Of a DNA stretch of 64,000 nt, positions 35,242 to 62,774 are shown one piece after another. Under the pieces are notes generated by a model that saw nothing but the letters and a program-made list of their open reading frames with translations, searched no databases and had not been told where the DNA came from. Position 1 is the stretch's first letter; the number at the start of each line of letters is the position of its first letter. Made by a program: the position numbers and the translations under genes. Source of the DNA: Escherichia phage Lindwurm; the sequence record NC_134264.1; one strand, given 5' to 3'.

Positions 35242-35302
35242 ATTTAATCTCCTCTTGGTAAGTAAGTATAACTTCAGTGTTTCTTCTCTAACTTACCAAT
35301 AT

Positions 35303-35331
35303 ATTATATCAAAATATTGGGATAATAGCAA
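35303..35331 (-). promoter_or_regulatory. sigma70-like promoter upstream of DNA polymerase (TTGCTA-17-TATAAT)
   Basis: Read on - strand. Confidence 0.65.
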
Positions 35332-38132: not shown

Positions 38133-38900
38133 TTATTCAGCAGCCGCAGCTTTTGCATCCAGTTTAGCACGCTTAGCGGCACCATCATAGTCCTTAGCAA
38201 CCAGACCACGACGAGACAGCATAGATTTAACACCCCGCTCAGACTTACCAGTTTTCTCAGCAATCTCAGCAACAGTCATGTTAACCAGATCCAGACCTTC
38301 TAACAGATCTTCACGAGTTTTAGCACTTGAAGTTTCCTGTACCGGCATAGCAGCAATACGACCTTCACGAAGCAGACTCAGAGCTTTACCACGGATCTGC
38401 TTAATATTGCGACCGAAGTGAGCAGCGATAGCTTCAATAGTAGCACCAGCAACAACCTGATTAACAAAATCAGTTTCTTCATCCGGAGTGAAGGAACGAA
38501 CAGCAGCAGCTTTTTCAGTTGGCTTAACAGAAGCAGTCATTTCCAGACTCAGAATCTTACCTTGTACCTGCTTAGCACCGAACTGACCACCAGCTACAGC
38601 AGCAGCGATTTCAGCATAGGTATACTGACCAGCATGAGCGTTCAGGAAATCAACCAGTTCAGCTTCCTGCTCAGGAGTCCACGGAGATTTCTGCACTTCG
38701 TTAGCTTTTTGTACTTCAAAACCTTCTTTACGCAGTTTAGAGCCAACAGAGCGAGCAGTAACATCTTTGCCGGTTTCCGCAGCCAGTTCAGCAGCGATAG
38801 CAGCTACTTGTTCTTGAGAGATTACAGCAACACCCAGAGCAGTGGCTTTTGCTTTCAGAGACTCGGTTACACCTTCTACGTTCCAGTTCAGTTTAGACAT
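38133..38900 (-). CDS. DNA-binding protein built from four ~30-aa helix-rich repeats (T5 D5-like, putative)
   Basis: Internal repeats (e.g. TYAEIAAAVAGGQFGAKQVQGKILSL / ATIEAIAAHFGRNIKQIRGKALSL / MTVAEIAEKTGKSERGVKSML). Confidence 0.55.
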   Translation of the reverse strand: MSKLNWNVEGVTESLKAKATALGVAVISQEQVAAIAAELAAETGKDVTARSVGSKLRKEGFEVQKANEVQKSPWTPEQEAELVDFLNAHAGQYTYAEIAAAVAGGQFGAKQVQGKILSLEMTASVKPTEKAAAVRSFTPDEETDFVNQVVAGATIEAIAAHFGRNIKQIRGKALSLLREGRIAAMPVQETSSAKTREDLLEGLDLVNMTVAEIAEKTGKSERGVKSMLSRRGLVAKDYDGAAKRAKLDAKAAAAE

Positions 38901-39675
38901 TATTATTTTTCTCCAATAGTTCTTTAATCGACAGGATTTCTATCCCATTCGTTTCGGCTTTCTTATAAGATGAGGAAGAACGCTTCGATTCATCCTCACA
39001 GATTAGGTATTTGACGTCTTTAGTAACGGATTTCTTAACCGTATATCCTAGACCTTCTAAATAGTTTGTTGCATCCGTTCGATTTGCAAAATCTTGCAAA
39101 GATCCGGTAATACATACCGCGATTCCATTTGGCTGGGCAATTAATTCATCTGTAATGATGACGTCAGCTTTAGTGCCCTTAATACCGGTTGAAAATTTCC
39201 ACGGTAGTTCGATAACATCCTTGCCTTGTGGGGAATTTAGCCAGGCTTTATAATTTTCTCCAGCCTTGCCGTCAGCCTTCACATCGTGGAAGCTAGTGCA
39301 ATTTTGGGATAATTTCTTTGCTGCAACCTCTCCAATTAGAGAGATTCCTAAAGAACCGAGAACTGAACCAAAGTCAATGTCTCCGCGAACTTTAGTATTT
39401 AATTCGCTAATTAGCTTAGCGGCAACCTTGCTACCCACGGCTCTAACCAAATCTTCTTCGGTTAGGTAAAATAGTTCTGAAATCTTCGTCAGCTCCAGCT
39501 TCTCAATAGTTTTTGGGCCAAAGCCCTTTAACTTCATTTTTGTACAGAAGTTCTCAATTAACTTACTTGATTGCGCTGGACAGTTGGACTTATTCCGACA
39601 GAATAATTGTCCGTTGACAAGATCTAGCTTAGAACCACAAGAGGGACATTGTGTTGGAATTTCGATTTTCATCAA
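38893..39675 (-). CDS. NAD-dependent DNA ligase, C-terminal subunit (Zn finger, HhH, BRCT-like)
   Basis: CPSCGSKLDLVNGQLFCRNKSNCPAQ zinc ribbon at N-terminus; HhH-like GFGPKTIEKL; own promoter upstream. Confidence 0.8.
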   Translation of the reverse strand: MMKIEIPTQCPSCGSKLDLVNGQLFCRNKSNCPAQSSKLIENFCTKMKLKGFGPKTIEKLELTKISELFYLTEEDLVRAVGSKVAAKLISELNTKVRGDIDFGSVLGSLGISLIGEVAAKKLSQNCTSFHDVKADGKAGENYKAWLNSPQGKDVIELPWKFSTGIKGTKADVIITDELIAQPNGIAVCITGSLQDFANRTDATNYLEGLGYTVKKSVTKDVKYLICEDESKRSSSSYKKAETNGIEILSIKELLEKNNNV

Positions 39676-39874: not shown

Positions 39875-40846
39875 TTAATCGTATACTCGCTCTACTATGC
39901 ACGGGATTACACCACCAGCACGAATTACTCGAATCTGGCAACCGATCTCTAGATCGAGAGAGTTAATATAATCAACGTTATTAAGGGTCGCTTTAACAAT
40001 TGTAGCATCATCAATAATTACCGGCTCGAAATAACCAACTGGAGTTACTTTACCAGAAGCCCCTACCTGCCACTCAACTTTAGTAAGAGTTGTAATCTCG
40101 CCTTCTTCATCCTCTTTAATAGCGAATGCTCCACGAGGGAATTTATTAGTCCAGCCTTCACGGAAGAATTTGTTGTTGTCATTAATACGAACAACTTTAC
40201 CGTCCGTCGGAATCCATTTAAAGAAGGAACGCACATTAACAACTGTTAAGAAGTCCTCATTCTCTAGCCAAAGCATATCTTTTAAATATGCTTCTGTAAT
40301 ACCTACAGATTCAGCAGAACACTGGATACCGTATGCAACGAAGATTAGACCACCTTCTCCGATACGTTGTACGAAATCATCACTATCTTTGAGGTTAATA
40401 GCACCAGAGGCAAAGTTACGTTTATTTTCTACTTCTTTTGTAATTAGAACTTCACCAGTGATTTGAGTAGGTACTTTTTGGGAAATCTTTTTAGGAATAT
40501 TCAGCAATCTTACGTTGCTTGTGACATCATTCCCTAGAATACCATTACCACGAGTTAGTGCTTGAACAAATTCTCCATTAATATATAACAGAGAAATCGC
40601 ACAACCATCTAACTTATCAGTTTCTACTTGACCTAATGGGTTAAACGGAGGTTTATCCCCACGATTATAATAAACTTTCTGTAAAGAATACATACGATAC
40701 AGATGTGGGATATCTCCTTTAGGCCCAATCTCTTCCTCTATTGGGAATCTTTTAATAAGACGATCATATTCTTCATCAGAGATTAAAGACATTCCCTGGT
40801 AATACGCTTCTTGACAACGTTTAATAAAGTCTTTTACATTAGTCAT
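39875..40846 (-). CDS. NAD-dependent DNA ligase, N-terminal adenylation/OB subunit
   Basis: KxDG adenylation motif (ETDKLDGCA), LigA-type Ia/NTase features. Confidence 0.85.
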   Translation of the reverse strand: MTNVKDFIKRCQEAYYQGMSLISDEEYDRLIKRFPIEEEIGPKGDIPHLYRMYSLQKVYYNRGDKPPFNPLGQVETDKLDGCAISLLYINGEFVQALTRGNGILGNDVTSNVRLLNIPKKISQKVPTQITGEVLITKEVENKRNFASGAINLKDSDDFVQRIGEGGLIFVAYGIQCSAESVGITEAYLKDMLWLENEDFLTVVNVRSFFKWIPTDGKVVRINDNNKFFREGWTNKFPRGAFAIKEDEEGEITTLTKVEWQVGASGKVTPVGYFEPVIIDDATIVKATLNNVDYINSLDLEIGCQIRVIRAGGVIPCIVERVYD

Positions 40847-43088: not shown

Positions 43089-43119
43089 ATTTAAACTCCT
43101 CTCTCAAATTTATGAATCT

Positions 43120-43148
43120 ATTATACAGAAATTTTTTCCTGAAAGCAA
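43120..43148 (-). promoter_or_regulatory. strong early promoter resembling the classical T5 PN25 promoter
   Basis: - strand reads TTGCTTTCAGGAAAAAATTTCTGTATAATAGATTCATAAATTTGAGAGAGGAGTT, nearly identical to PN25 as I recall it. Confidence 0.8.
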
Positions 43149-46617: not shown

Positions 46618-47116
46618 AACAATACTCCTGTGTTGGAAATGAAATAAGTTTTCTTTAGGACTATTCAGAAAGAATAGAACAACTGTTACTGTCAATTTCT
46701 CAACAAATTAATTGCAAATACTGAAGTGGGGTGGCAACTTCCACTTTCACGCTGCGCTGCTGCTTTGCTATACCGCACAAATCCTTGAGGATGGCCGCTA
46801 AGCCAGATTTGCTCACCTAATGCTTCATATACTAGCTCATACTAGATGCAATATAACTTACAGAATCACGTCTCGGAGTTTTTCACTCCTCCCGTCTCAC
46901 TTCACAACCACCTCTATCTAGGTTGCTTCGAGGCCTTACCAGGGTTCCTACGGGACGCAGATCGCTAAGTATTCTATTAACTATTTGTTTAAAAACTAAC
47001 ACGTAACAGTTAAAACAACCCTTAATGGGGCAGCCTAACTGTTCCGTATCGCGGATTGTAAACAAGAAAAATTAGCAAAATCAATTTTTACTAATGTCTC
47101 TCAATTCAATATAAAT

Positions 47117-47145
47117 ATTATATCAAGATTTTGGGCATCCTGCAA
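47117..47145 (-). promoter_or_regulatory. sigma70-like promoter (TTGCAG-17-TATAAT) at head of long non-coding leader
   Basis: Read on - strand; transcript would run ~500 nt before next CDS. Confidence 0.55.
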
Positions 47146-47236
47146 GTAAAATTTTCCGGATGGTGCTATCATTGGTCTTGAGTACGGATAAAACCGAGCC
47201 AAAATGACTCGGTAATCAGAGTTCAGCTAATAAAAA

Positions 47237-47629
47237 TCATTCATCATTTAATCCCGGAACATAGATCCCAACACGGTTTAATTGTTCTTTAGCTTCTTTG
47301 AGAATATCTGGAGTGTACTCCCAAATATCATCTTCCACCTGTAAAAGATGGGGCGAACAACCATCATCCGGCACACGACATATGGCCAAACCACGTGGAT
47401 GGAACAAAGAGAAGTTTAGGGCAACAATCAAGCCCATAGCAGACAATTCATTCCAATCCAATTCCCATTCCCCCGCGTAGCCGGATAGGAAAACACCAAC
47501 ACAGGGATCATCTGTTTGCTGCTCAGGAAAAGTGAAGGAGGCTTGTCTTACCCCCAACCAACGTTGTAGCAGCTTCTCCGCACGTTTCACCAAACTAGGG
47601 TCAATCTGACGCCAATATACTTGTTCCAT
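47237..47629 (-). CDS. hypothetical protein, paralog A (130 aa)
   Basis: Paralogous to 47639..48067 (PCVGVFLSGYAGEWELDW...MGLIVALNF vs PCIGLIVQVEEDLEEIVGWKELDEMGLVFALNY). Confidence 0.55.
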   Translation of the reverse strand: MEQVYWRQIDPSLVKRAEKLLQRWLGVRQASFTFPEQQTDDPCVGVFLSGYAGEWELDWNELSAMGLIVALNFSLFHPRGLAICRVPDDGCSPHLLQVEDDIWEYTPDILKEAKEQLNRVGIYVPGLNDE

Positions 47630-47638
47630 TATGCCTCC

Positions 47639-48067
47639 TTAGGCAGTTAAACCTGGGATCATATACCCGAAACGTCGAAGTTTCTGAATCCCCTCATTTA
47701 CTTCTTCCGGTGAGTAAGACCAACCATAACGTTCATTAATCTGAAAACCAGGAGATTCACTAGTTTTATAGTTAACAACTAGGCGATGCTTAGCAGGCAT
47801 AAACAGCTTATAGTTTAACGCAAAAACTAAGCCCATTTCGTCTAACTCTTTCCAGCCCACAATCTCTTCAAGATCCTCCTCTACCTGAACAATTAAACCA
47901 ATACAGGGAGCCTCATCAATATCATCTTTAAAAGCAAAGGAGATTTCGTTATTCTCACACCATATTTTCAAAGAGTTAATAGCCTCATTATACAGGCTAG
48001 CCGGGAGAGTACGCCAAAAGTTAACTAAAATTGGGTTAGCTTCTTTAGAGAATACATTATTGAACAT
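47639..48067 (-). CDS. hypothetical protein, paralog B (142 aa)
   Basis: Tandem paralog of 47237..47629; C-terminal RFGYMIPGLT vs RVGIYVPGLN. Confidence 0.55.
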   Translation of the reverse strand: MFNNVFSKEANPILVNFWRTLPASLYNEAINSLKIWCENNEISFAFKDDIDEAPCIGLIVQVEEDLEEIVGWKELDEMGLVFALNYKLFMPAKHRLVVNYKTSESPGFQINERYGWSYSPEEVNEGIQKLRRFGYMIPGLTA

Positions 48068-48069
48068 AT

Positions 48070-48582
48070 TTACACCTTAAATTGTTGCAAGGATTTACAC
48101 ATTTCAAGATTTGGGCTAAATTCTAGCATATAGCTAACAGCTTTTAAATCTTGAAGATTTATCCCAGTCCTACCGTTGACTATAACCGTTGGATACTGAT
48201 ACATCATAGCACCCGCATCATCAAGCACACACCAATGTTTGAGCTTATGCTTTTCAACGAAGCGAAGAACAGAATTACCCCTAGATAATCCACCCCCAGT
48301 AAAATCCGTTGTACCAAGAAAACGATCGATAAGACCTAATCCGGTCATAATCTGAATGTTCTCCATCTCATTTCTGACAGAGAACCAAGATGATACTCCA
48401 ACAATCATTATTGGAGAAGGACGAATAAAGTCCTGAAAAGCCTTGAGAAGCGGTTTGAAAACCCAATCACTTCCAAAGAAAATCTTTTCATCATCAGGCG
48501 CATGATATTGGGAGATGCTCGAATTGAGCACCCCATCAATGTCTAGAAAAATAATTGGAGTATTACTTATTTCCTGACACAT
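48070..48582 (-). CDS. HAD-superfamily hydrolase (possible nucleotidase/phosphatase)
   Basis: HAD motif I FLDIDGVLN near N-terminus; ~170 aa. Confidence 0.6.
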   Translation of the reverse strand: MCQEISNTPIIFLDIDGVLNSSISQYHAPDDEKIFFGSDWVFKPLLKAFQDFIRPSPIMIVGVSSWFSVRNEMENIQIMTGLGLIDRFLGTTDFTGGGLSRGNSVLRFVEKHKLKHWCVLDDAGAMMYQYPTVIVNGRTGINLQDLKAVSYMLEFSPNLEMCKSLQQFKV

Positions 48583-49378
48583 AAGGTCTACCCTCTAAAT
48601 GAGCTTCTACACGAGCAATAAAATCAGGATCACTGAAAGCATCTACCGCACCTTTACTCCAGTAAGGGATACCGCGTTCTTCCAGCTGGTACATCTCACT
48701 ACGAGTCATACCTTGATAGCTCGGTTCCGCCGCTAGGGCACTATCATAGTAGTTAACAACCATTAGCTTGGCAGCAGTCAAATTAAGAACAGGAAATAAT
48801 TCCCAGTAGAAGTTAATTACTTGGTTAGAGCAACCAACCACAACGATCATATCTTGACTGGTAATACCATCAAAAACATTGTACATTTCTGCGTACGCTG
48901 GAGCATGCTCCCCAAAAAAGATTACATTAGGTTTAACCCATTTATAATCGTCTGGATCAATAGAATTGTACCCTACATCAATAATCCGTTTATTGCTACT
49001 ATTGTAGCTATCAGCTACAACAACCTCTTTTAAATATCCGTGAATGTGCAGAATGTCACTATGTGGAACGCCAGCACGCTCAATAAGGTCATCAACGTTG
49101 GTAGTCAAGTTTACTACTTGGCCTGGATATTGTTTATACCATTCACCAATACGCAAATGCGCAAGATTGGGTTCAACAGTTTTTAGCTCTTCACGACGCT
49201 TGTTGTAAAACATATGGGTTTTATGATAAAAATTACCACGAAAGGCATGAATATTACATACCTCTTCTAGATCATAATCATCCCACAATGCTTTACCGCT
49301 AGCAGTATCAGTACGAAAAGCTCGTACACCACTTTCAACACTCAAACCTGCACCACTAATAATAATTAATCTACGCAT
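48563..49378 (-). CDS. Sir2-like (sirtuin family) protein lacking the zinc-ribbon module
   Basis: GAGLSVESGVRAFR, TTNVDDL, HIHG, PNVIFFGE, VVVGCS motifs; no CxxC pairs. Confidence 0.75.
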   Translation of the reverse strand: MRRLIIISGAGLSVESGVRAFRTDTASGKALWDDYDLEEVCNIHAFRGNFYHKTHMFYNKRREELKTVEPNLAHLRIGEWYKQYPGQVVNLTTNVDDLIERAGVPHSDILHIHGYLKEVVVADSYNSSNKRIIDVGYNSIDPDDYKWVKPNVIFFGEHAPAYAEMYNVFDGITSQDMIVVVGCSNQVINFYWELFPVLNLTAAKLMVVNYYDSALAAEPSYQGMTRSEMYQLEERGIPYWSKGAVDAFSDPDFIARVEAHLEGRPYVSGNK

Positions 49379-49592
49379 TTTTCACCTGTTCTCTGAAGTT
49401 TTGCCCAATACTGTCTAATAGCTCAGCTAATTCTTTATTGCCTTTCTCCATTAAGGTATTAGCAATAACTTCTAGCATAGTAGCACAGGATTCAACACCA
49501 TCCTTATAGCCAGTTTCCCACTGCTGCATTAATGCGTTTTCCAAAGCGTCGTTTAAACCCTTATCTGGTAGCATCGGCTTCGAGAATGCCAT
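49371..49592 (-). CDS. hypothetical protein (73 aa)
   Basis: Translationally coupled ORF in Sir2 operon. Confidence 0.4.
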   Translation of the reverse strand: MAFSKPMLPDKGLNDALENALMQQWETGYKDGVESCATMLEVIANTLMEKGNKELAELLDSIGQNFREQVKNA

Positions 49593-49785
49593 AAAGTTTC
49601 TCCTCTAGTTCCATAACACGATTTTCATAAGAGGCACGCAACTTTTCAATTGCCAGCGCACGCACTGTAACCTCATTAGAATTAATAGCTAATTGGGCCA
49701 GATCTTCTGTTTCCATACGTCCGTTGTAAATTAAGCGATATTTAAGGTGTTTCACATTCTTAGTCATTATTAAACTCCACTGCAA
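49561..49785 (-). CDS. hypothetical protein (74 aa)
   Basis: Translationally coupled ORF in Sir2 operon. Confidence 0.4.
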   Translation of the reverse strand: MQWSLIMTKNVKHLKYRLIYNGRMETEDLAQLAINSNEVTVRALAIEKLRASYENRVMELEEKLYGILEADATR

Positions 49786-50140
49786 CTGTTTCTAGGTCTT
49801 CATCAGAAAAATTAGAGTATACATCTTTAAGGTATTGTTTAATGTCTTCAGTAATATCTTCGTATCCCTCAGGAATACGTTGGTATACTTTTAGTACTCT
49901 ATTATAAACAAATTCAATATCATACTTTATTTCACCCTCATCCTCGTCAAACAAGCAATCTGAGTTATACGGTGATACATCTAGATTTGTTTCTACCCAA
50001 TCACCAATAATTGATGGATATCCAATACCCTCTAGATGGGAATAATCTCCAGTAGATGCAAAAATAGCTTCTCTAAGATCGTCTACGCCAAGATGGAAAC
50101 CACCACATGTAGACTCAACTATATAGGGCTTTAATTCCAT
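49760..50140 (-). CDS. hypothetical strongly acidic protein (126 aa), first gene of Sir2 operon
   Basis: Directly downstream of promoter 50169..50197 with GAGGAG RBS; D/E-rich. Confidence 0.55.
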   Translation of the reverse strand: MELKPYIVESTCGGFHLGVDDLREAIFASTGDYSHLEGIGYPSIIGDWVETNLDVSPYNSDCLFDEDEGEIKYDIEFVYNRVLKVYQRIPEGYEDITEDIKQYLKDVYSNFSDEDLETVAVEFNND

Positions 50141-50168
50141 ACCTTTCTCCTCTCAAATTTATAAATCT

Positions 50169-50197
50169 ATTATATATAAATTTTTGGCTGAAAGCAA
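50169..50197 (-). promoter_or_regulatory. sigma70-like promoter of Sir2-like operon (TTGCTT-17-TATAAT)
   Basis: Read on - strand; leader TTTATAAATTTGAGAGGAG then ATG 50140. Confidence 0.7.
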
Positions 50198-50239
50198 ATA
50201 AAATAAAAGCCAGGTCGACTAGCAACCCGGCTGATTAGC

Positions 50240-52114
50240 TTATTTAGCTCGAATATCCTGATGTTTCACTCTGCCCATCACCTCGTGCTGTTTACCGGGG
50301 TTAAATGGACGAGCACCCGGATTTCCAAGATACCCACAAACTCGACGAGTTACTTCAAGAGTTTCGGGGTCATGATTACCACAGATAGGGCACTTAAATC
50401 CATCTTCGGATGCTATTGTTTCACCTAAGAATCCACATTTACCACAAGAATCCACCGGAGTATTAATACCGAAGTAATGAACCTTACTAGCAGCATAATT
50501 AATAACCCATTCCAATGCATCTGGGAATCGTTTCATATCCGGTAATTCTACATAGGAAATACACCCACCAGAAGCAATCGGAGTAAAGTTAGATTCATAA
50601 TCAAATTTGACGTTAGGAGCAACTTTACGTTCCACATCAAGGTGGTGAGAGTTAGTGTAGTATCCTTTGGACAGAATATCTTCATGCTCCGGGAAATATT
50701 CACGGTCTAGACGACAAAAACGGTCACATAGGGATTCTGATGGTGTAGCATACAGGCTATAACCTAACTTAGTCTCTTCCTTCTTTTGATCGACCCTATC
50801 TCGCATGTACTGCAATACACGCTGAACAAACTTGATGCAGGTCTCGGACATTGTATCTACATCTTTGCCAAACATGAACTGTAGCATTTCATGGCAACCA
50901 ATATACCCTAGAGATACAGAAGCACGGTTATAGAAATGATCGAATACATATTCATCAGGCCCCAAGCGTAACCCAAAGGCTCCTGACATATAGAGGATGG
51001 GTGCAGCTTTAGCTTGAATGTATTTTAAGCGATCAACTCTCCACTCCAACGCTTTTAATGCTGTATCCACACGTAGCTCAAGCAAATCAAAGAATAGGTC
51101 AATATTTCCCTCAGCTTCGATAGCAATTCTAGGCAAGTTTACAGAAACAACACCTAAGTTATTACGACCGGCAGTTTCACCATCTTCTGTAGCAGCTAGG
51201 AATGAACGACAGCCCATAGAAACTTTATAGTCTCCAGTAACTTCTACAACCTTGTCATAACTGATATAATCTGGATACATACGTTCAGCAGTACATTTCA
51301 TAGCTAATTTCTTGATGTCATAATTAACATCTCCTGGTTTCATATTTACGCCATCACGAAGTACAAATACCAGTTTCGGGAAGATAGCTGTACGTTTATT
51401 GATACCTAAACCATCCATGCGTACTTTCAGTATTGCCCTCTGTACTAGACGTGCTTCCCAAGAAGTTCCTAGACCAAAACCAAAGGTAATAAATGGACTC
51501 TGACCATTAGAGTTGAACATGGTATTGATTTCATATTCTAAACCCTGACAAGCGTCATAGACTTCTTTTTCAGTCATCTCCGTAGCCATTACGGATGCTT
51601 TGGCTTCATCCTTAGTCCAACGTTTTGCAAACGCATGATTTTTATCATAGGATTTACGAACATAAGGGGCTAATACTTCATCAAGGCGATCTACAGAAGT
51701 ACCACCATACTGATGGGAGCTAACCTGAGTGATAATCTGAGCAGTAATAGCCGCCGCAGTAGTAATAGAGTTTGGAGTGCTAATTTCAGCATTACCAACC
51801 TTCATACCATTCTTCAACATATCTTCCAGAGCTACCAGACAACAGTTAGTCATGCCTAATGCAGCATAATCAGCATCATGGAAATGAATATCCCCAATCA
51901 TATGAGCATTTCGAATCTGAATTGGCATTTCTTCTAGAATCAGATACTTACTCAATTCACCTGCAAGCATATCCCTTTGTGTAGGGAAACGTTCTGAGGG
52001 TTTATTGGCATTATTAAATAGCAGCTCTTCATCTGCTGACCCTTCGATAATCTCTTTGCAGTTTCTAATTAACGCCTGCATTTCTTTATATTTTAGTTCT
52101 TCGTTACGATTCAT
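50240..52114 (-). CDS. nrdD: anaerobic ribonucleoside-triphosphate reductase
   Basis: C-terminal glycyl-radical motif RRVCGYLG; Cys-rich C-terminal Zn site; perfect consensus promoter upstream. Confidence 0.9.
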   Translation of the reverse strand: MNRNEELKYKEMQALIRNCKEIIEGSADEELLFNNANKPSERFPTQRDMLAGELSKYLILEEMPIQIRNAHMIGDIHFHDADYAALGMTNCCLVALEDMLKNGMKVGNAEISTPNSITTAAAITAQIITQVSSHQYGGTSVDRLDEVLAPYVRKSYDKNHAFAKRWTKDEAKASVMATEMTEKEVYDACQGLEYEINTMFNSNGQSPFITFGFGLGTSWEARLVQRAILKVRMDGLGINKRTAIFPKLVFVLRDGVNMKPGDVNYDIKKLAMKCTAERMYPDYISYDKVVEVTGDYKVSMGCRSFLAATEDGETAGRNNLGVVSVNLPRIAIEAEGNIDLFFDLLELRVDTALKALEWRVDRLKYIQAKAAPILYMSGAFGLRLGPDEYVFDHFYNRASVSLGYIGCHEMLQFMFGKDVDTMSETCIKFVQRVLQYMRDRVDQKKEETKLGYSLYATPSESLCDRFCRLDREYFPEHEDILSKGYYTNSHHLDVERKVAPNVKFDYESNFTPIASGGCISYVELPDMKRFPDALEWVINYAASKVHYFGINTPVDSCGKCGFLGETIASEDGFKCPICGNHDPETLEVTRRVCGYLGNPGARPFNPGKQHEVMGRVKHQDIRAK

Positions 52115-52364: not shown

Positions 52365-52393
52365 TTGCTTTTTACTGTATATATTGGTATAAT
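52365..52393 (+). promoter_or_regulatory. sigma70-like promoter upstream of phoH (TTGCTT-17-TATAAT)
   Basis: Followed by TTGATAAACAAG leader and AGGAG RBS. Confidence 0.7.
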
Positions 52394-52466
52394 ATATTTG
52401 TAAGTTGATAAACAAGATCTTTTTGTTGATCCTCTGTTAGCGAAGTACACTATAGGAGTGTTATTT

Positions 52467-60110: not shown

Positions 60111-60395
60111 ATGCGGATTTATAACTCAAATTCATTAGGATTTAAACCATTGAGAAAACGTGCACAATCACCTCGTCAAATAAGAAAGGCTAATATTGGT
60201 GAGCCAGAGACACGACTTCCACCTCCTCCAGAACAACGTTTAGTTTATCTGGACGAAGAATTAGCGGAACGCGAAAGAAAAGCTCAAGAAGAGATTGAGC
60301 GTAAGAAAATGTGTACTGCTCCAGCCTACTCCAAAGGGGCTTATCAGTATATCTATACAGCCGAGGAGGCTAAAGATGCGGGGCGTAAAAAATGA
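60111..60395 (+). CDS. hypothetical basic/Pro-rich protein (94 aa), coupled to NADAR gene
   Basis: Promoter 60055..60083 and GAGGAG RBS; stop overlaps NADAR start (ATGA). Confidence 0.5.
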   Translation: MRIYNSNSLGFKPLRKRAQSPRQIRKANIGEPETRLPPPPEQRLVYLDEELAERERKAQEEIERKKMCTAPAYSKGAYQYIYTAEEAKDAGRKK

Positions 60396-60841
60396 AGATT
60401 ACCGAATTTAAAGGTACTTATAGTTTCTTATCTAACTTTTATTTATCACCAATCACTTTCGAATACCTAAACGAGATATGGCATGCTGATACTGTAGAAC
60501 ATGCTTTTCAGGCTATGAAATCCGACCAAAAAGATGATGTAGCTCATGTACTGCGCTCCCTAAATGCAGGAGTTGCCAAACGTAGAGGACGTAAATTAAC
60601 TCTACGCTCTGACTGGGATAAGGTAAAAGATGATGTAATGCTAGAGCTTTTACGGTTAAAGTTTGCAATACCTGATTTGAGAGACAAACTGTTAGCAACA
60701 AAAAATGCAACTTTGATCGAAGGAAATACCTGGGGAGATACATATTGGGGTGTTTGTCGAGGCATCGGGGATAATACTCTAGGTGTTCTTTTGATGCAGG
60801 TAAGGTCTGAAATTAAAAGAAGCTTACAGTTAATAAATTAA
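60392..60841 (+). CDS. NADAR (YbiA-like, DUF1768) family protein
   Basis: FLSNF, EHAFQAMK, KFA..LRDKLLAT, YWGVCRGIGDNTLGVLLM motifs align with E. coli YbiA as recalled. Confidence 0.75.
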   Translation: MKITEFKGTYSFLSNFYLSPITFEYLNEIWHADTVEHAFQAMKSDQKDDVAHVLRSLNAGVAKRRGRKLTLRSDWDKVKDDVMLELLRLKFAIPDLRDKLLATKNATLIEGNTWGDTYWGVCRGIGDNTLGVLLMQVRSEIKRSLQLIN

Positions 60842-62705: not shown

Positions 62706-62734
62706 TTGCTTCCGGCTCCAAAATTCTGTATAAT
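62706..62734 (+). promoter_or_regulatory. sigma70-like promoter (TTGCTT-17-TATAAT) with conserved leader
   Basis: Leader ATATTCATAAATTTGAGAAAACAATAAAAGGAAAACAAAT before ATG 62775. Confidence 0.75.
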
Positions 62735-62774
62735 ATATTCATAAATTTGAGAAAACAATAAAAGGAAAACAAAT

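What the first reader, a model, noticed from the sequence alone, without database searches (positions are those of the whole stretch)
47237..50197. Seven-gene operon centred on a zinc-less Sir2-like protein and a HAD hydrolase: candidate NAD/ADP-ribose-directed module
From promoter 50169..50197 (- strand), seven ORFs are arranged with overlapping or near-abutting starts and stops: a strongly acidic 126-aa protein, two ~73-aa proteins, a Sir2-family protein (GAGLSVESG...FR, TTNVDDL, HIHG, PNVIFFGE, VVVGCS) that lacks the zinc-ribbon cysteines of canonical sirtuins, a HAD-superfamily hydrolase (FLDIDGVLN), and two tandem paralogs of unknown function. Zinc-less Sir2 domains occur in NAD-consuming bacterial defence systems. 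In a virulent phage this combination could instead manipulate host NAD/ADP-ribose metabolism or counter NAD-depleting defences. Function is unassigned from sequence.
Basis: partly seen in the sequence, partly recalled or inferred. Interest (0 to 1): 0.7.

Follow-up and report, generated by a model that had tools for sequence, protein, structure and literature searches.

The report
Known T5 sirtuin–phosphatase early operon
This is the conserved early operon of T5-like phages that pairs a zinc-less sirtuin with a small HAD phosphatase. It is real, but it is already annotated and was already predicted in 2022, without experiments, to be an NAD-using RNA-repair or ADP-ribose-processing module.

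Summary
The window is a T5-like phage (about 97% nucleotide identity to sequenced Tequintaviruses). Positions 47237-50197 (minus strand) hold one early transcription unit: a T5-type promoter, seven tightly packed ORFs and a terminator.

- **Sirtuin:** ORF4 keeps every NAD-binding and catalytic motif and lacks the four zinc cysteines, as does its whole phage clade.
- **Phosphatase:** ORF5 is an intact HAD phosphatase of the "Swiss-army-knife RNA repair" type.
- **Paralogs:** ORF6 and ORF7 are DUF7415 paralogs with no recognisable fold.

The sirtuin is not the defence NADase kind. Its closest relatives are CobB, SIRT5 and Sir2Af, and it matches no defence-system model.

This sirtuin–HAD pairing in T5-like phages was described by Iyer et al. 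2022. They proposed a KptA-like, NAD-dependent removal of RNA 2'-phosphates. Nobody has tested this.

I add four points:
- T5-like genomes carry no detectable Rnl1-type RNA ligase or end-healing kinase.
- The closest HAD relatives sit next to this sirtuin or inside NARP1 NAD-rebuilding operons.
- Only Sir2, HAD, ORF2 and the DUF7415 pair are constant.
- In a published knockdown screen of T5, only the last gene scored as important.

Verdict: already known, function untested, moderate interest.

The parts
50208..50232 (-). Terminator hairpin plus T-run ending the upstream nrdD gene. It marks the 5' boundary of the unit.
   Evidence: 10-bp stem, 6 GC, T-run. T5 annotates a rho-independent terminator at the homologous site.
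50164..50197 (-). T5-type early promoter, TTGCTT-17-TATAAT followed by AGATT.
   Evidence: Sequence. The motif occurs 5 times in the window against 0.11 expected. The homologous site is annotated 'putative early promoter T5P31'.
49760..50140 (-). g1: acidic 126-aa protein (T5.100/ORF094 family, phrog_11748). Variable slot.
   Evidence: pI 4.05. Homologs lie between HAD and Sir2 in L007, L103 and L104. It is replaced by unrelated genes in phiP4 and SuperGirl, and g1 was not detected in many of the T5-like loci fetched.
49561..49767 (-). g2: 68-aa protein of unknown function (phrog_5236, T5.101).
   Evidence: Present in all 27 close T5-like loci examined (L024-L050; not detected in the more distant L051).
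49371..49592 (-). g3: 73-aa protein of unknown function (phrog_5827), with two divergent alleles among relatives.
   Evidence: 90-97% identity in most loci that carry this allele, against 31-36% in the other allele class.
48563..49378 (-). g4: zinc-less sirtuin of a phage-specific clade (T5.102, 'cobB'). CobB/SIRT5-like, with GAGxS, FR, YxxR, TNVDD, HG, FGE, GxS and N intact.
   Evidence: Structure model pLDDT 90.9. Best structural match is CobB 1S5P.
48070..48582 (-). g5: capless HAD phosphatase, HAD_SAK_2 type (T5.105), with DxD, SS, R and DD motifs invariant.
   Evidence: Related genes are found in 498 phage records.
47639..48067 (-). g6: DUF7415 protein (T5.106).
47237..47629 (-). g7: DUF7415 paralog (T5.107). 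Its T5 ortholog is one of only 17 'Fit' genes in a knockdown screen.
47188..47213 (-). Terminator hairpin (9 bp, 3-nt loop) followed by TTTTAT, ending the unit.
   Evidence: T5 annotates a terminator at the matching position.

Best explanation
Shown: this is the conserved early transcription unit of T5-like phages, T5.100 to T5.107 in T5 numbering (T5.103 and T5.104 have no counterpart in this window). Its constant core is a phage-clade sirtuin that has lost the zinc module but keeps all NAD-binding and catalytic residues. Next to it is a small intact HAD phosphatase of the RNA-repair ('Swiss-army-knife') type, followed by two DUF7415 paralogs.

Inferred mechanism, essentially that proposed by Iyer et al. 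2022:
1. The sirtuin uses NAD+ to attack an anionic group on a nucleic-acid end. The most likely target is the 2'-phosphate left on RNA (tRNA) cleaved by host metal-independent nucleases.
2. The chemistry would parallel KptA/Tpt1: nicotinamide is released and the phosphate leaves on ADP-ribose as ADPr>P or ADPr-1''P.
3. The HAD phosphatase then removes a phosphate. I favour the ADP-ribose-phosphate by-product as its substrate over the RNA end, because the same HAD subfamily is built into NARP1 operons that need plain ADP-ribose.
4. Sealing would have to be done by host enzymes, because the phage has no detectable RNA ligase.

The role of DUF7415 is unknown and may be separate.
For: Identity:
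- About 97% nucleotide identity to Tequintaviruses; 204 phage records cover at least 80% of the region.
- The T5 reference annotates promoter T5P31 and terminators at the same places.

Sirtuin:
- PF02146 at 87.6 bits.
- Invariant in 60 phage homologs: G9-A10-G11, S13, S16, G17, F21, R22, Y58, R61, N94, D96, H113, G114, F154, F155, E157, G182, S184, N209.
- Y58 and R61 align with the YNAR segment of CobB in the printed alignment. I identify these as CobB Y92/R95, the class III anion-binding pair, from my recollection of CobB numbering and of the class III YxxR motif. I take this as compatible with a phosphate or an acidic acyl group.

Phosphatase: the HAD catalytic motifs are invariant in 23 sequences.

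Context:
- The same sirtuin clade sits in operons with Rnl1-type RNA ligase, cREC and a P-loop kinase in rV5 and SSE121; a Mydovirus locus has the same ORF sizes and order but was not scanned. This reproduces Iyer et al. independently.
- HAD homologs lie near RnlA in Aeromonas T4-like phages. A DUF7415-like ORF starts 9 nt after RnlA there.
- HAD also lies next to Rnl1-like genes in L066 and near a phosphoesterase-Rnl1-kinase cluster in L071/L072.
- HAD-g1-Sir2 linkage is kept in a different gene order in L007, L103 and L104.
- HAD-Adps-Namat operons occur in ChuuTotoro, ABPH49 and a JGI contig. The Adps there is 42% identical to that of Vibrio phage Gary, whose NARP1-AP operon was characterised experimentally.

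Phenotype: knock-down of Sir2 and HAD in T5 gave no fitness defect on a laboratory host, as expected for a conditional function.
Against: - No experiment shows any sirtuin acting on RNA phosphates. By sequence and fold the protein looks like an ordinary class III deacylase.
- tblastn (E <= 0.1) found no Rnl1-type RNA ligase, cREC, polynucleotide-kinase-like kinase, rV5-type MazG or rV5-type phosphoesterase in the window or in the complete genome of a close relative. No RNA ligase or 2H enzyme is annotated there, although an unrelated calcineurin-like phosphoesterase (gp173) is. Rnl2- and RtcB-type ligases were judged from annotation only. The pathway would therefore be incomplete without host enzymes.
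- All T5-like phages share whole-genome synteny, so hundreds of genomes count as roughly one observation of the Sir2-HAD adjacency.
- An unbiased Pfam census of the two genes on each side of 32 non-redundant distant HAD loci showed no recurrent partner. RNA ligase, cREC and PTH2 each appeared once, as did thymidylate synthase, dUTPase and dCTP deaminase.
- The T5 knockdown screen is insensitive. Known essential genes also scored 'Not Fit', so it cannot prove dispensability.
Confidence: 0.35

Rival explanations
1. The sirtuin is simply a phage copy of a CobB-like NAD-dependent protein deacylase, probably preferring acidic acyl groups such as succinyl or malonyl. It would strip acyl marks from host or phage proteins early in infection. 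The HAD and DUF7415 genes would be unrelated neighbours in the same early transcript.
For: - The nearest sequences and structures are CobB, Sir2Af and SIRT5.
- The best NCBIfam matches are deacylase models.
- All catalytic residues and the class III YxxR pair are conserved.
- This is how published genome papers read it.
Against: - Scores are far below the CobB equivalog cut-offs (100 bits against 243).
- The whole clade has lost the zinc module.
- The clade repeatedly sits in operons with RNA ligase, cREC, kinase or HAD phosphoesterases in unrelated phage groups. A general deacylase role does not explain this.
- The host already has CobB.
Confidence: 0.3
2. This is the first reader's idea, refined: the pair works on soluble NAD/ADP-ribose metabolites as a counter-defence, with no RNA involved. 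For example, the HAD enzyme could dephosphorylate ADP-ribose-1''-phosphate made by RES-type NAD phosphorylases, as a non-homologous analogue of the macro-domain Adpp. The sirtuin could consume or convert an NAD-derived molecule.
For: - The closest non-T5 HAD relatives (35-40% identical) are the first gene of HAD-Adps-Namat operons.
- A macro-domain phosphatase in that operon position has been shown to feed ADPR to NARP1 against aRES.
- The window also encodes a NADAR protein and an NAD-dependent DNA ligase, so NAD matters to this phage.
Against: - T5-like genomes have no Adps or Namat, so ADPR could not be rebuilt into NAD+ by the phage.
- A sirtuin consumes NAD+, which is the opposite of what a phage facing NAD depletion needs.
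- The HAD-NARP1 loci share synteny and represent one lineage.
- T5 is reported as sensitive to DarTG2.
Confidence: 0.15
3. The sirtuin is an NADase of the kind used by bacterial defence systems. Here the phage would use it to drain host NAD+ or to shut off the host.
For: Only the shared loss of the zinc module with defence SIR2 domains.
Against: - No match to any PADLOC defence model.
- It matches PF02146, and Pfam reported no other family, including SIR2_2, at E <= 1.
- The structural neighbours are deacylases.
- The phage itself needs NAD+ for its DNA ligase.
Confidence: 0.05

Closest known systems
Sirtuin-centred phage 'RNA repair' neighbourhood, type 3 (Escherichia phage SP15 type), Iyer, Burroughs, Anantharaman & Aravind 2022, Viruses 14:1977 (PMC9503650)
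   Same: Same sirtuin clade next to the same 'Swiss-army-knife-like' HAD phosphatase in a T5-like phage. The SP15 DUF7415 protein is 90% identical to g6.
   Different: Nothing material; this window is another instance. That paper does not discuss DUF7415, the g1 family, the absence of a ligase in these genomes, or the HAD-NARP1 link.
E. coli CobB and human SIRT5 (class III sirtuins)
   Same: Rossmann fold, GAGxS, FR, YxxR, (T/Q)NxD, HG, FGE and GxS motifs. Best PDB match is 1S5P (E 2e-17, TM 0.70/0.84).
   Different: No zinc-binding cysteines. Only about 25% identity. Scores below the CobB family cut-offs. It has an extra C-terminal region of about 60 aa, and its gene context is phosphoesterases and RNA ligases.
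KptA/Tpt1 RNA 2'-phosphotransferase
   Same: Proposed to work alike: a nucleophilic oxygen attacks C1'' of NAD+, nicotinamide leaves, and the ribose 2''-OH then resolves the intermediate. This rests on established enzymology and on the proposal.
   Different: Unrelated fold (ART against Sir2). The activity is not demonstrated for any sirtuin.
NARP1-AP (Adps, macro-domain Adpp, Namat), Osterman et al. 2026 preprint
   Same: A phosphatase gene is embedded in an NAD-rebuilding operon. HAD relatives of g5 occupy such a position in ChuuTotoro-like phages.
   Different: The characterised phosphatase is a macro domain, not HAD. The T5-like genomes have no Adps or Namat.
Defence-associated SIR2 domains (ThsA, DSR1/2, SIR2-HerA, SIR2-APAZ)
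   Same: They lack the zinc module and use NAD+.
   Different: No profile match. They are not among the structural neighbours. Those proteins are NADase effectors fused or coupled to sensors, whereas this is a stand-alone phage early protein.
T4 Pnkp 3'-phosphatase domain / HAD_SAK_2 family
   Same: DxDxT-type HAD phosphatase associated with RNA end healing. A weak HAD-IIIA match was also seen.
   Different: No kinase domain and no partner ligase in the genome. The substrate is unknown.

Membership tests
Sir2 family (Pfam PF02146) | Profile score above the curated threshold | tested here: met
   87.6 bits against a cut-off of 24, matching positions 1-178 of the 180-position profile.
Sir2 family (Pfam PF02146) | NAD-binding and catalytic residues: GAGxS, FR, N and D of TQNxD, catalytic His of HG, FGE, GxS | tested here: met
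   All present, and invariant in 60 phage homologs. Q is replaced by T93.
Sir2 family (Pfam PF02146) | Four-cysteine zinc ribbon in the small domain | tested here: not met
   No Cys between H113 and F154. No 4-Cys site anywhere in 119 homologs.
CobB orthologs (NCBIfam equivalogs) | Score above the curated cut-off | tested here: not met
   Best 100.4 bits against a cut-off of 243; CobB equivalog 89.5 bits against 320.
Class III sirtuins (SIRT5/CobB type) | YxxR pair that binds an anionic acyl group | tested here: met
   Y58 and R61 align with the Y and R of the YNAR segment of CobB in the printed alignment. They are invariant in the clade. The Y92/R95 numbering is my own count.
Class III sirtuins (SIRT5/CobB type) | NAD-dependent lysine deacylase activity | not testable with these tools
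   Needs an enzyme assay.
Defence-associated SIR2 NADases (ThsA, DSR, SIR2-HerA) | Match to defence-system SIR2 profiles, or structural closeness | tested here: not met
   No PADLOC hit at E <= 0.1 except an irrelevant restriction-enzyme model. The top 50 Foldseek hits are all deacylase sirtuins.
HAD superfamily, HAD_SAK_2 (PF18143) | Profile score above threshold, plus motif I DxD, motif II S/T and motif IV DD | tested here: met
   71.8 bits against a cut-off of 27.5. D14, D16, S64, S65, R101 and D121 are invariant and D122 is nearly so (at least 90%) in 23 sequences.
Phage sirtuin-HAD neighbourhood (Iyer et al. 2022, type 3) | Sirtuin of the distinct phage clade adjacent to a SAK-like HAD gene in a proteobacterial phage | tested here: met
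   g4 and g5 overlap by 20 nt. The same family as in SP15-type phages.
Complete RNA heal-and-seal system (T4 Pnkp/Rnl1 type or rV5 type) | RNA ligase plus 5'-kinase encoded by the phage | tested here: not met
   tblastn with three Rnl1-type ligases, two kinases and two cREC proteins found nothing at E <= 0.1 in the window or the whole phiP4 genome. None is annotated there.
NARP1 NAD+ reconstitution pathway | Adps and Namat genes | tested here: not met
   No tblastn hit in the window or the phiP4 genome.
DUF7415 (PF24187) | Profile score above threshold | tested here: met
   121 and 108 bits against a cut-off of 27. The family has only 59 representative clusters among 1.84 billion proteins.

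The most novel reading that the evidence does not exclude
The sirtuin would be the first Sir2-fold enzyme that removes nucleic-acid phosphates by NAD-dependent ADP-ribosyl transfer, making it a KptA analogue. Its HAD partner would be a non-macro ADP-ribose-phosphate phosphatase. In other phages the same HAD would be plugged into NARP1 to turn phosphorylated ADP-ribose back into a substrate for NAD+ rebuilding. That would make it a second, unrelated solution to RES-type defence.
Probability: 0.15. Interest if true: 0.75.

Novelty: already known. Interest (0 to 1): 0.35.

Why it matters
More than a thousand sequenced phages carry this zinc-less sirtuin, and its biochemical role has never been tested. 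If it really acts on RNA phosphates, it would extend sirtuin chemistry beyond proteins. It would also add an NAD-dependent arm to phage counter-measures against tRNA-cleaving defences.

The HAD link to NARP1 operons suggests a cheap experiment that bears directly on the current NAD+ arms-race work. As a genome-scan finding, however, it adds no new object: the genes, the operon and the leading hypothesis are all already in the literature.

Tried and rejected
- **Defence-type Sir2:** rejected. There is no PADLOC hit and the structural neighbours are deacylases.
- **The 116-aa genes next to Sir2/HAD in rV5, L007 and L011 as one family:** rejected. They do not align. The rV5 protein is cREC, the L007 protein is a g1 homolog, and the L011 protein is unrelated.
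- **DUF7415 next to distant HAD genes:** not found by HMM in the first loci. It was found only after RnlA in Aeh1-like phages.
- **Unbiased neighbour census of distant HAD loci:** no recurrent family.
- **Non-coding features:** Rfam and tRNA scans of the window found nothing.
- **Literature for experiments on the T5 sirtuin:** none found.
- **NARP1 and aRES papers:** they do not mention a HAD partner.
- **Unavailable resources:** the afdb50 fold library and the 2016 RNA-repair paper.


Full report
**What is there**

The window is a T5-like phage. The 3.4 kb around the finding is 97% identical to Escherichia phages NG_A1, SUT_E1520 and slur09. Of 529 matching phage records, 204 cover at least 80% of it.

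Seven co-directional ORFs lie on the minus strand between nrdD and the replication-origin-binding helicase gene. Their starts and stops overlap or nearly abut.

The unit is bracketed as follows:
- The nrdD terminator hairpin lies at 50232-50208.
- A promoter TTGCTT-17-TATAAT lies at 50197-50169.
- A 9-bp hairpin with a T-run lies at 47213-47188.

The promoter is not a chance match. TTGCTT-N17-TATAATAGATT occurs five times in the window against 0.11 expected. The T5 reference record annotates 'putative early promoter T5P31' and terminators at the homologous positions. From memory, the sequence is nearly the classic T5 PN25 early promoter.

**The proteins**

*g4, the sirtuin*
- It matches Pfam Sir2 at 87.6 bits.
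- It matches NCBI's CobB-type deacylase models only below their cut-offs.
- Its best solved relative by sequence is E. coli CobB (1S5P, E 2e-17).
- A confident model (pLDDT 90.9) is closest to CobB (TM 0.70/0.84), then Sir2Af and SIRT5. No defence SIR2 appears in the top 50.
- It matches no PADLOC defence model.
- In an alignment of 60 phage homologs the NAD-binding and catalytic residues are invariant. So are Y58 and R61, which align with the YNAR segment of CobB. I identify these as CobB Y92/R95, the class III pair that binds an anionic acyl group; that numbering and role come from my own knowledge.
- The four zinc cysteines are missing in the whole clade.

*g5, the HAD phosphatase*
- It matches HAD_SAK_2, 'HAD domain in Swiss Army Knife RNA repair proteins', at 71.8 bits.
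- It keeps DxD, SS, R and DD invariant across 23 relatives.

*g6 and g7, the DUF7415 paralogs*
- They are 31% identical paralogs of DUF7415.
- The family is tiny: 59 representative clusters among 1.84 billion proteins.

*g1, g2 and g3*
- g1 is strongly acidic, with pI 4.05.
- g2 and g3 are small proteins with no family beyond PHROGs of unknown function.

**What is constant and what is not**

In 28 T5-like loci from IMG/VR, nrdD, Sir2 and HAD are present in every one. g2 and both DUF7415 genes are detected in the 27 close relatives. The more distant L051 shows a g1-like gene and a single DUF7415. g1 is absent or replaced in many loci, and g3 has two alleles.
- phiP4 and SuperGirl carry unrelated small genes in the g1 slot.
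- T5, slur09 and SuperGirl have about 340 bp between Sir2 and HAD. Two small ORFs are annotated there in slur09 and SuperGirl, and in the T5 re-annotation of Adler et al.. This window lacks them.

In three more distant Demerecviridae-like metagenomic contigs the order is HAD, a g1 homolog, then Sir2. These contigs have no DUF7415, g2 or g3. The durable association is therefore Sir2 plus HAD, often with the g1 family, rather than a seven-gene module.

**What it is most likely for**

The sirtuin clade occurs in about 1,000 phage records. In Vequintavirinae it sits inside tightly packed operons with a T4-type RNA ligase, a cREC 'cyclic-phosphate processing' protein and a P-loop kinase. rV5 adds a calcineurin-like phosphoesterase and a pyrophosphohydrolase.

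I then found that Iyer, Burroughs, Anantharaman and Aravind (2022, PMC9503650) had already described exactly this. They report a distinct phage sirtuin clade in three neighbourhood types. The third is a T5-like phage (SP15) with the SAK-like HAD phosphatase. They propose that the sirtuin acts like KptA/Tpt1, removing RNA 2'-phosphates with NAD+. In their scheme the phosphoesterases either open cyclic phosphates or process the ADPr>P product. No experiment exists.

**What I add**

1. *No detectable ligase or end-healing kinase.* The window and the complete genome of a close relative contain no detectable Rnl1-type RNA ligase, cREC, polynucleotide-kinase-like kinase, rV5-type MazG or phosphoesterase, Adps or Namat. 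No RNA ligase is annotated in the relative's genome. In T5-like phages the proposed repair pathway would therefore depend on host enzymes.
2. *Closest HAD relatives are NAD-linked.* Outside the Tequinta- and Epseptimaviruses, the closest HAD relatives (35-42% identity) are linked to one of two partners. Some sit next to this sirtuin. Others are the first gene of HAD-Adps-Namat operons in Serratia phage ChuuTotoro, Acinetobacter phage ABPH49 and a JGI contig. That Adps is 42% identical to the Adps of Vibrio phage Gary, whose NARP1-AP operon was characterised experimentally. A macro-domain phosphatase in that operon position was recently shown to convert ADPr-1''P to ADPR so that NARP1 can rebuild NAD+. 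This favours an ADP-ribose-phosphate substrate for the HAD enzyme over an RNA end.
3. *Other HAD and DUF7415 contexts.* In Aeh1-like Aeromonas phages, HAD lies about 700 bp upstream of RnlA, and a DUF7415-like ORF starts 9 nt after it. An unbiased census of 32 distant HAD loci shows no recurrent partner, so distant contexts carry little weight.
4. *Published knockdown data.* In the T5 CRISPRi-ART screen, T5.100 to T5.106 (including Sir2 and HAD) are 'Not Fit'. T5.107, the g7 ortholog, is one of only 17 'Fit' genes. The screen is insensitive: nrdA, obp (T5.108) and pri also scored 'Not Fit'. Even so, the result hints that DUF7415 has its own role.

**Rivals**

- An ordinary CobB-like deacylase remains nearly as likely, because sequence and fold point that way.
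- A purely metabolite-level NAD/ADPr counter-defence role is possible but weakly supported. The phage cannot rebuild NAD+ itself.
- A defence-like NADase role is unlikely.
- T5 is reported as sensitive to DarTG2.

**Verdict**

The object and the leading hypothesis are already known, and the function remains untested.

Noticed in passing
window 46696-47236 (minus strand): About 540 nt lie between the operon terminator and the origin-binding helicase gene, with no convincing ORF. In T5 the homologous stretch carries promoter T5P32 followed by a leader of about 470 nt. No Rfam family matches. It could be a long structured leader or a replication-related region.
   Followed up: partly
window 48563-48582, compared with L001 4567-4925, L005 4830-5178 and L015 3175-3498: There is an insertion polymorphism between Sir2 and HAD. 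This window has none, and the two genes overlap by 20 nt. T5, slur09 and SuperGirl carry about 340 bp there, with two small paralogous ORFs (phrog_5116; T5.103 and T5.104).
   Followed up: partly
window 49760-50140, and the same slot in L006, L005 and L024-L050: The first gene after the promoter is a hypervariable slot. Close relatives have the acidic 126-aa family (about 80%, about 50% or, in one locus, 66% identity alleles), unrelated 70-aa or 93-aa genes, or no detectable g1.
   Followed up: partly
window 47237-47629 (g7; T5.107 ortholog): The second DUF7415 paralog's T5 ortholog is one of only 17 genes scored 'Fit' in the T5 CRISPRi-ART screen. Its paralog T5.106, Sir2 and HAD are not. No function is known for it.
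   Followed up: partly
window 60392-60838 (+), 39878-40846 (-) and 38896-39672 (-): Other NAD/ADP-ribose-related genes lie in the same window: a NADAR (YbiA-like) protein and an NAD-dependent DNA ligase split into A and B subunits.
   Followed up: no
window 50240-52114 (nrdD), compared with L025, L027, L037, L043-L045 and L049: The neighbouring nrdD gene exists as two alleles, about 99% and about 60% identical at the protein level, among otherwise near-identical T5-like phages. This indicates mosaic exchange next to the operon.
   Followed up: no
window 43115-43148 (-), 52365-52398 (+), 62706-62739 (+) and 35298-35331 (-): Four further copies of the T5 early-promoter motif TTGCTT-N17-TATAAT(A/T)(G/A)ATT. 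The copy at 43115 is, from memory, almost identical to PN25.
   Followed up: no
L009 5001-8217, L010 5001-8222 and L011 4001-7569: NARP1 operons (Adps-Namat) in ChuuTotoro-like phages carry a HAD_SAK_2 gene as their first, overlapping gene. The NARP1 and NARP1-AP papers I read do not mention such a partner. It is a candidate non-macro ADPr-phosphate phosphatase.
   Followed up: partly
P0216 (515 aa): A DUF7415 domain is fused to a thymidylate kinase domain in one metagenomic protein. This is the only informative domain fusion found for this family.
   Followed up: no
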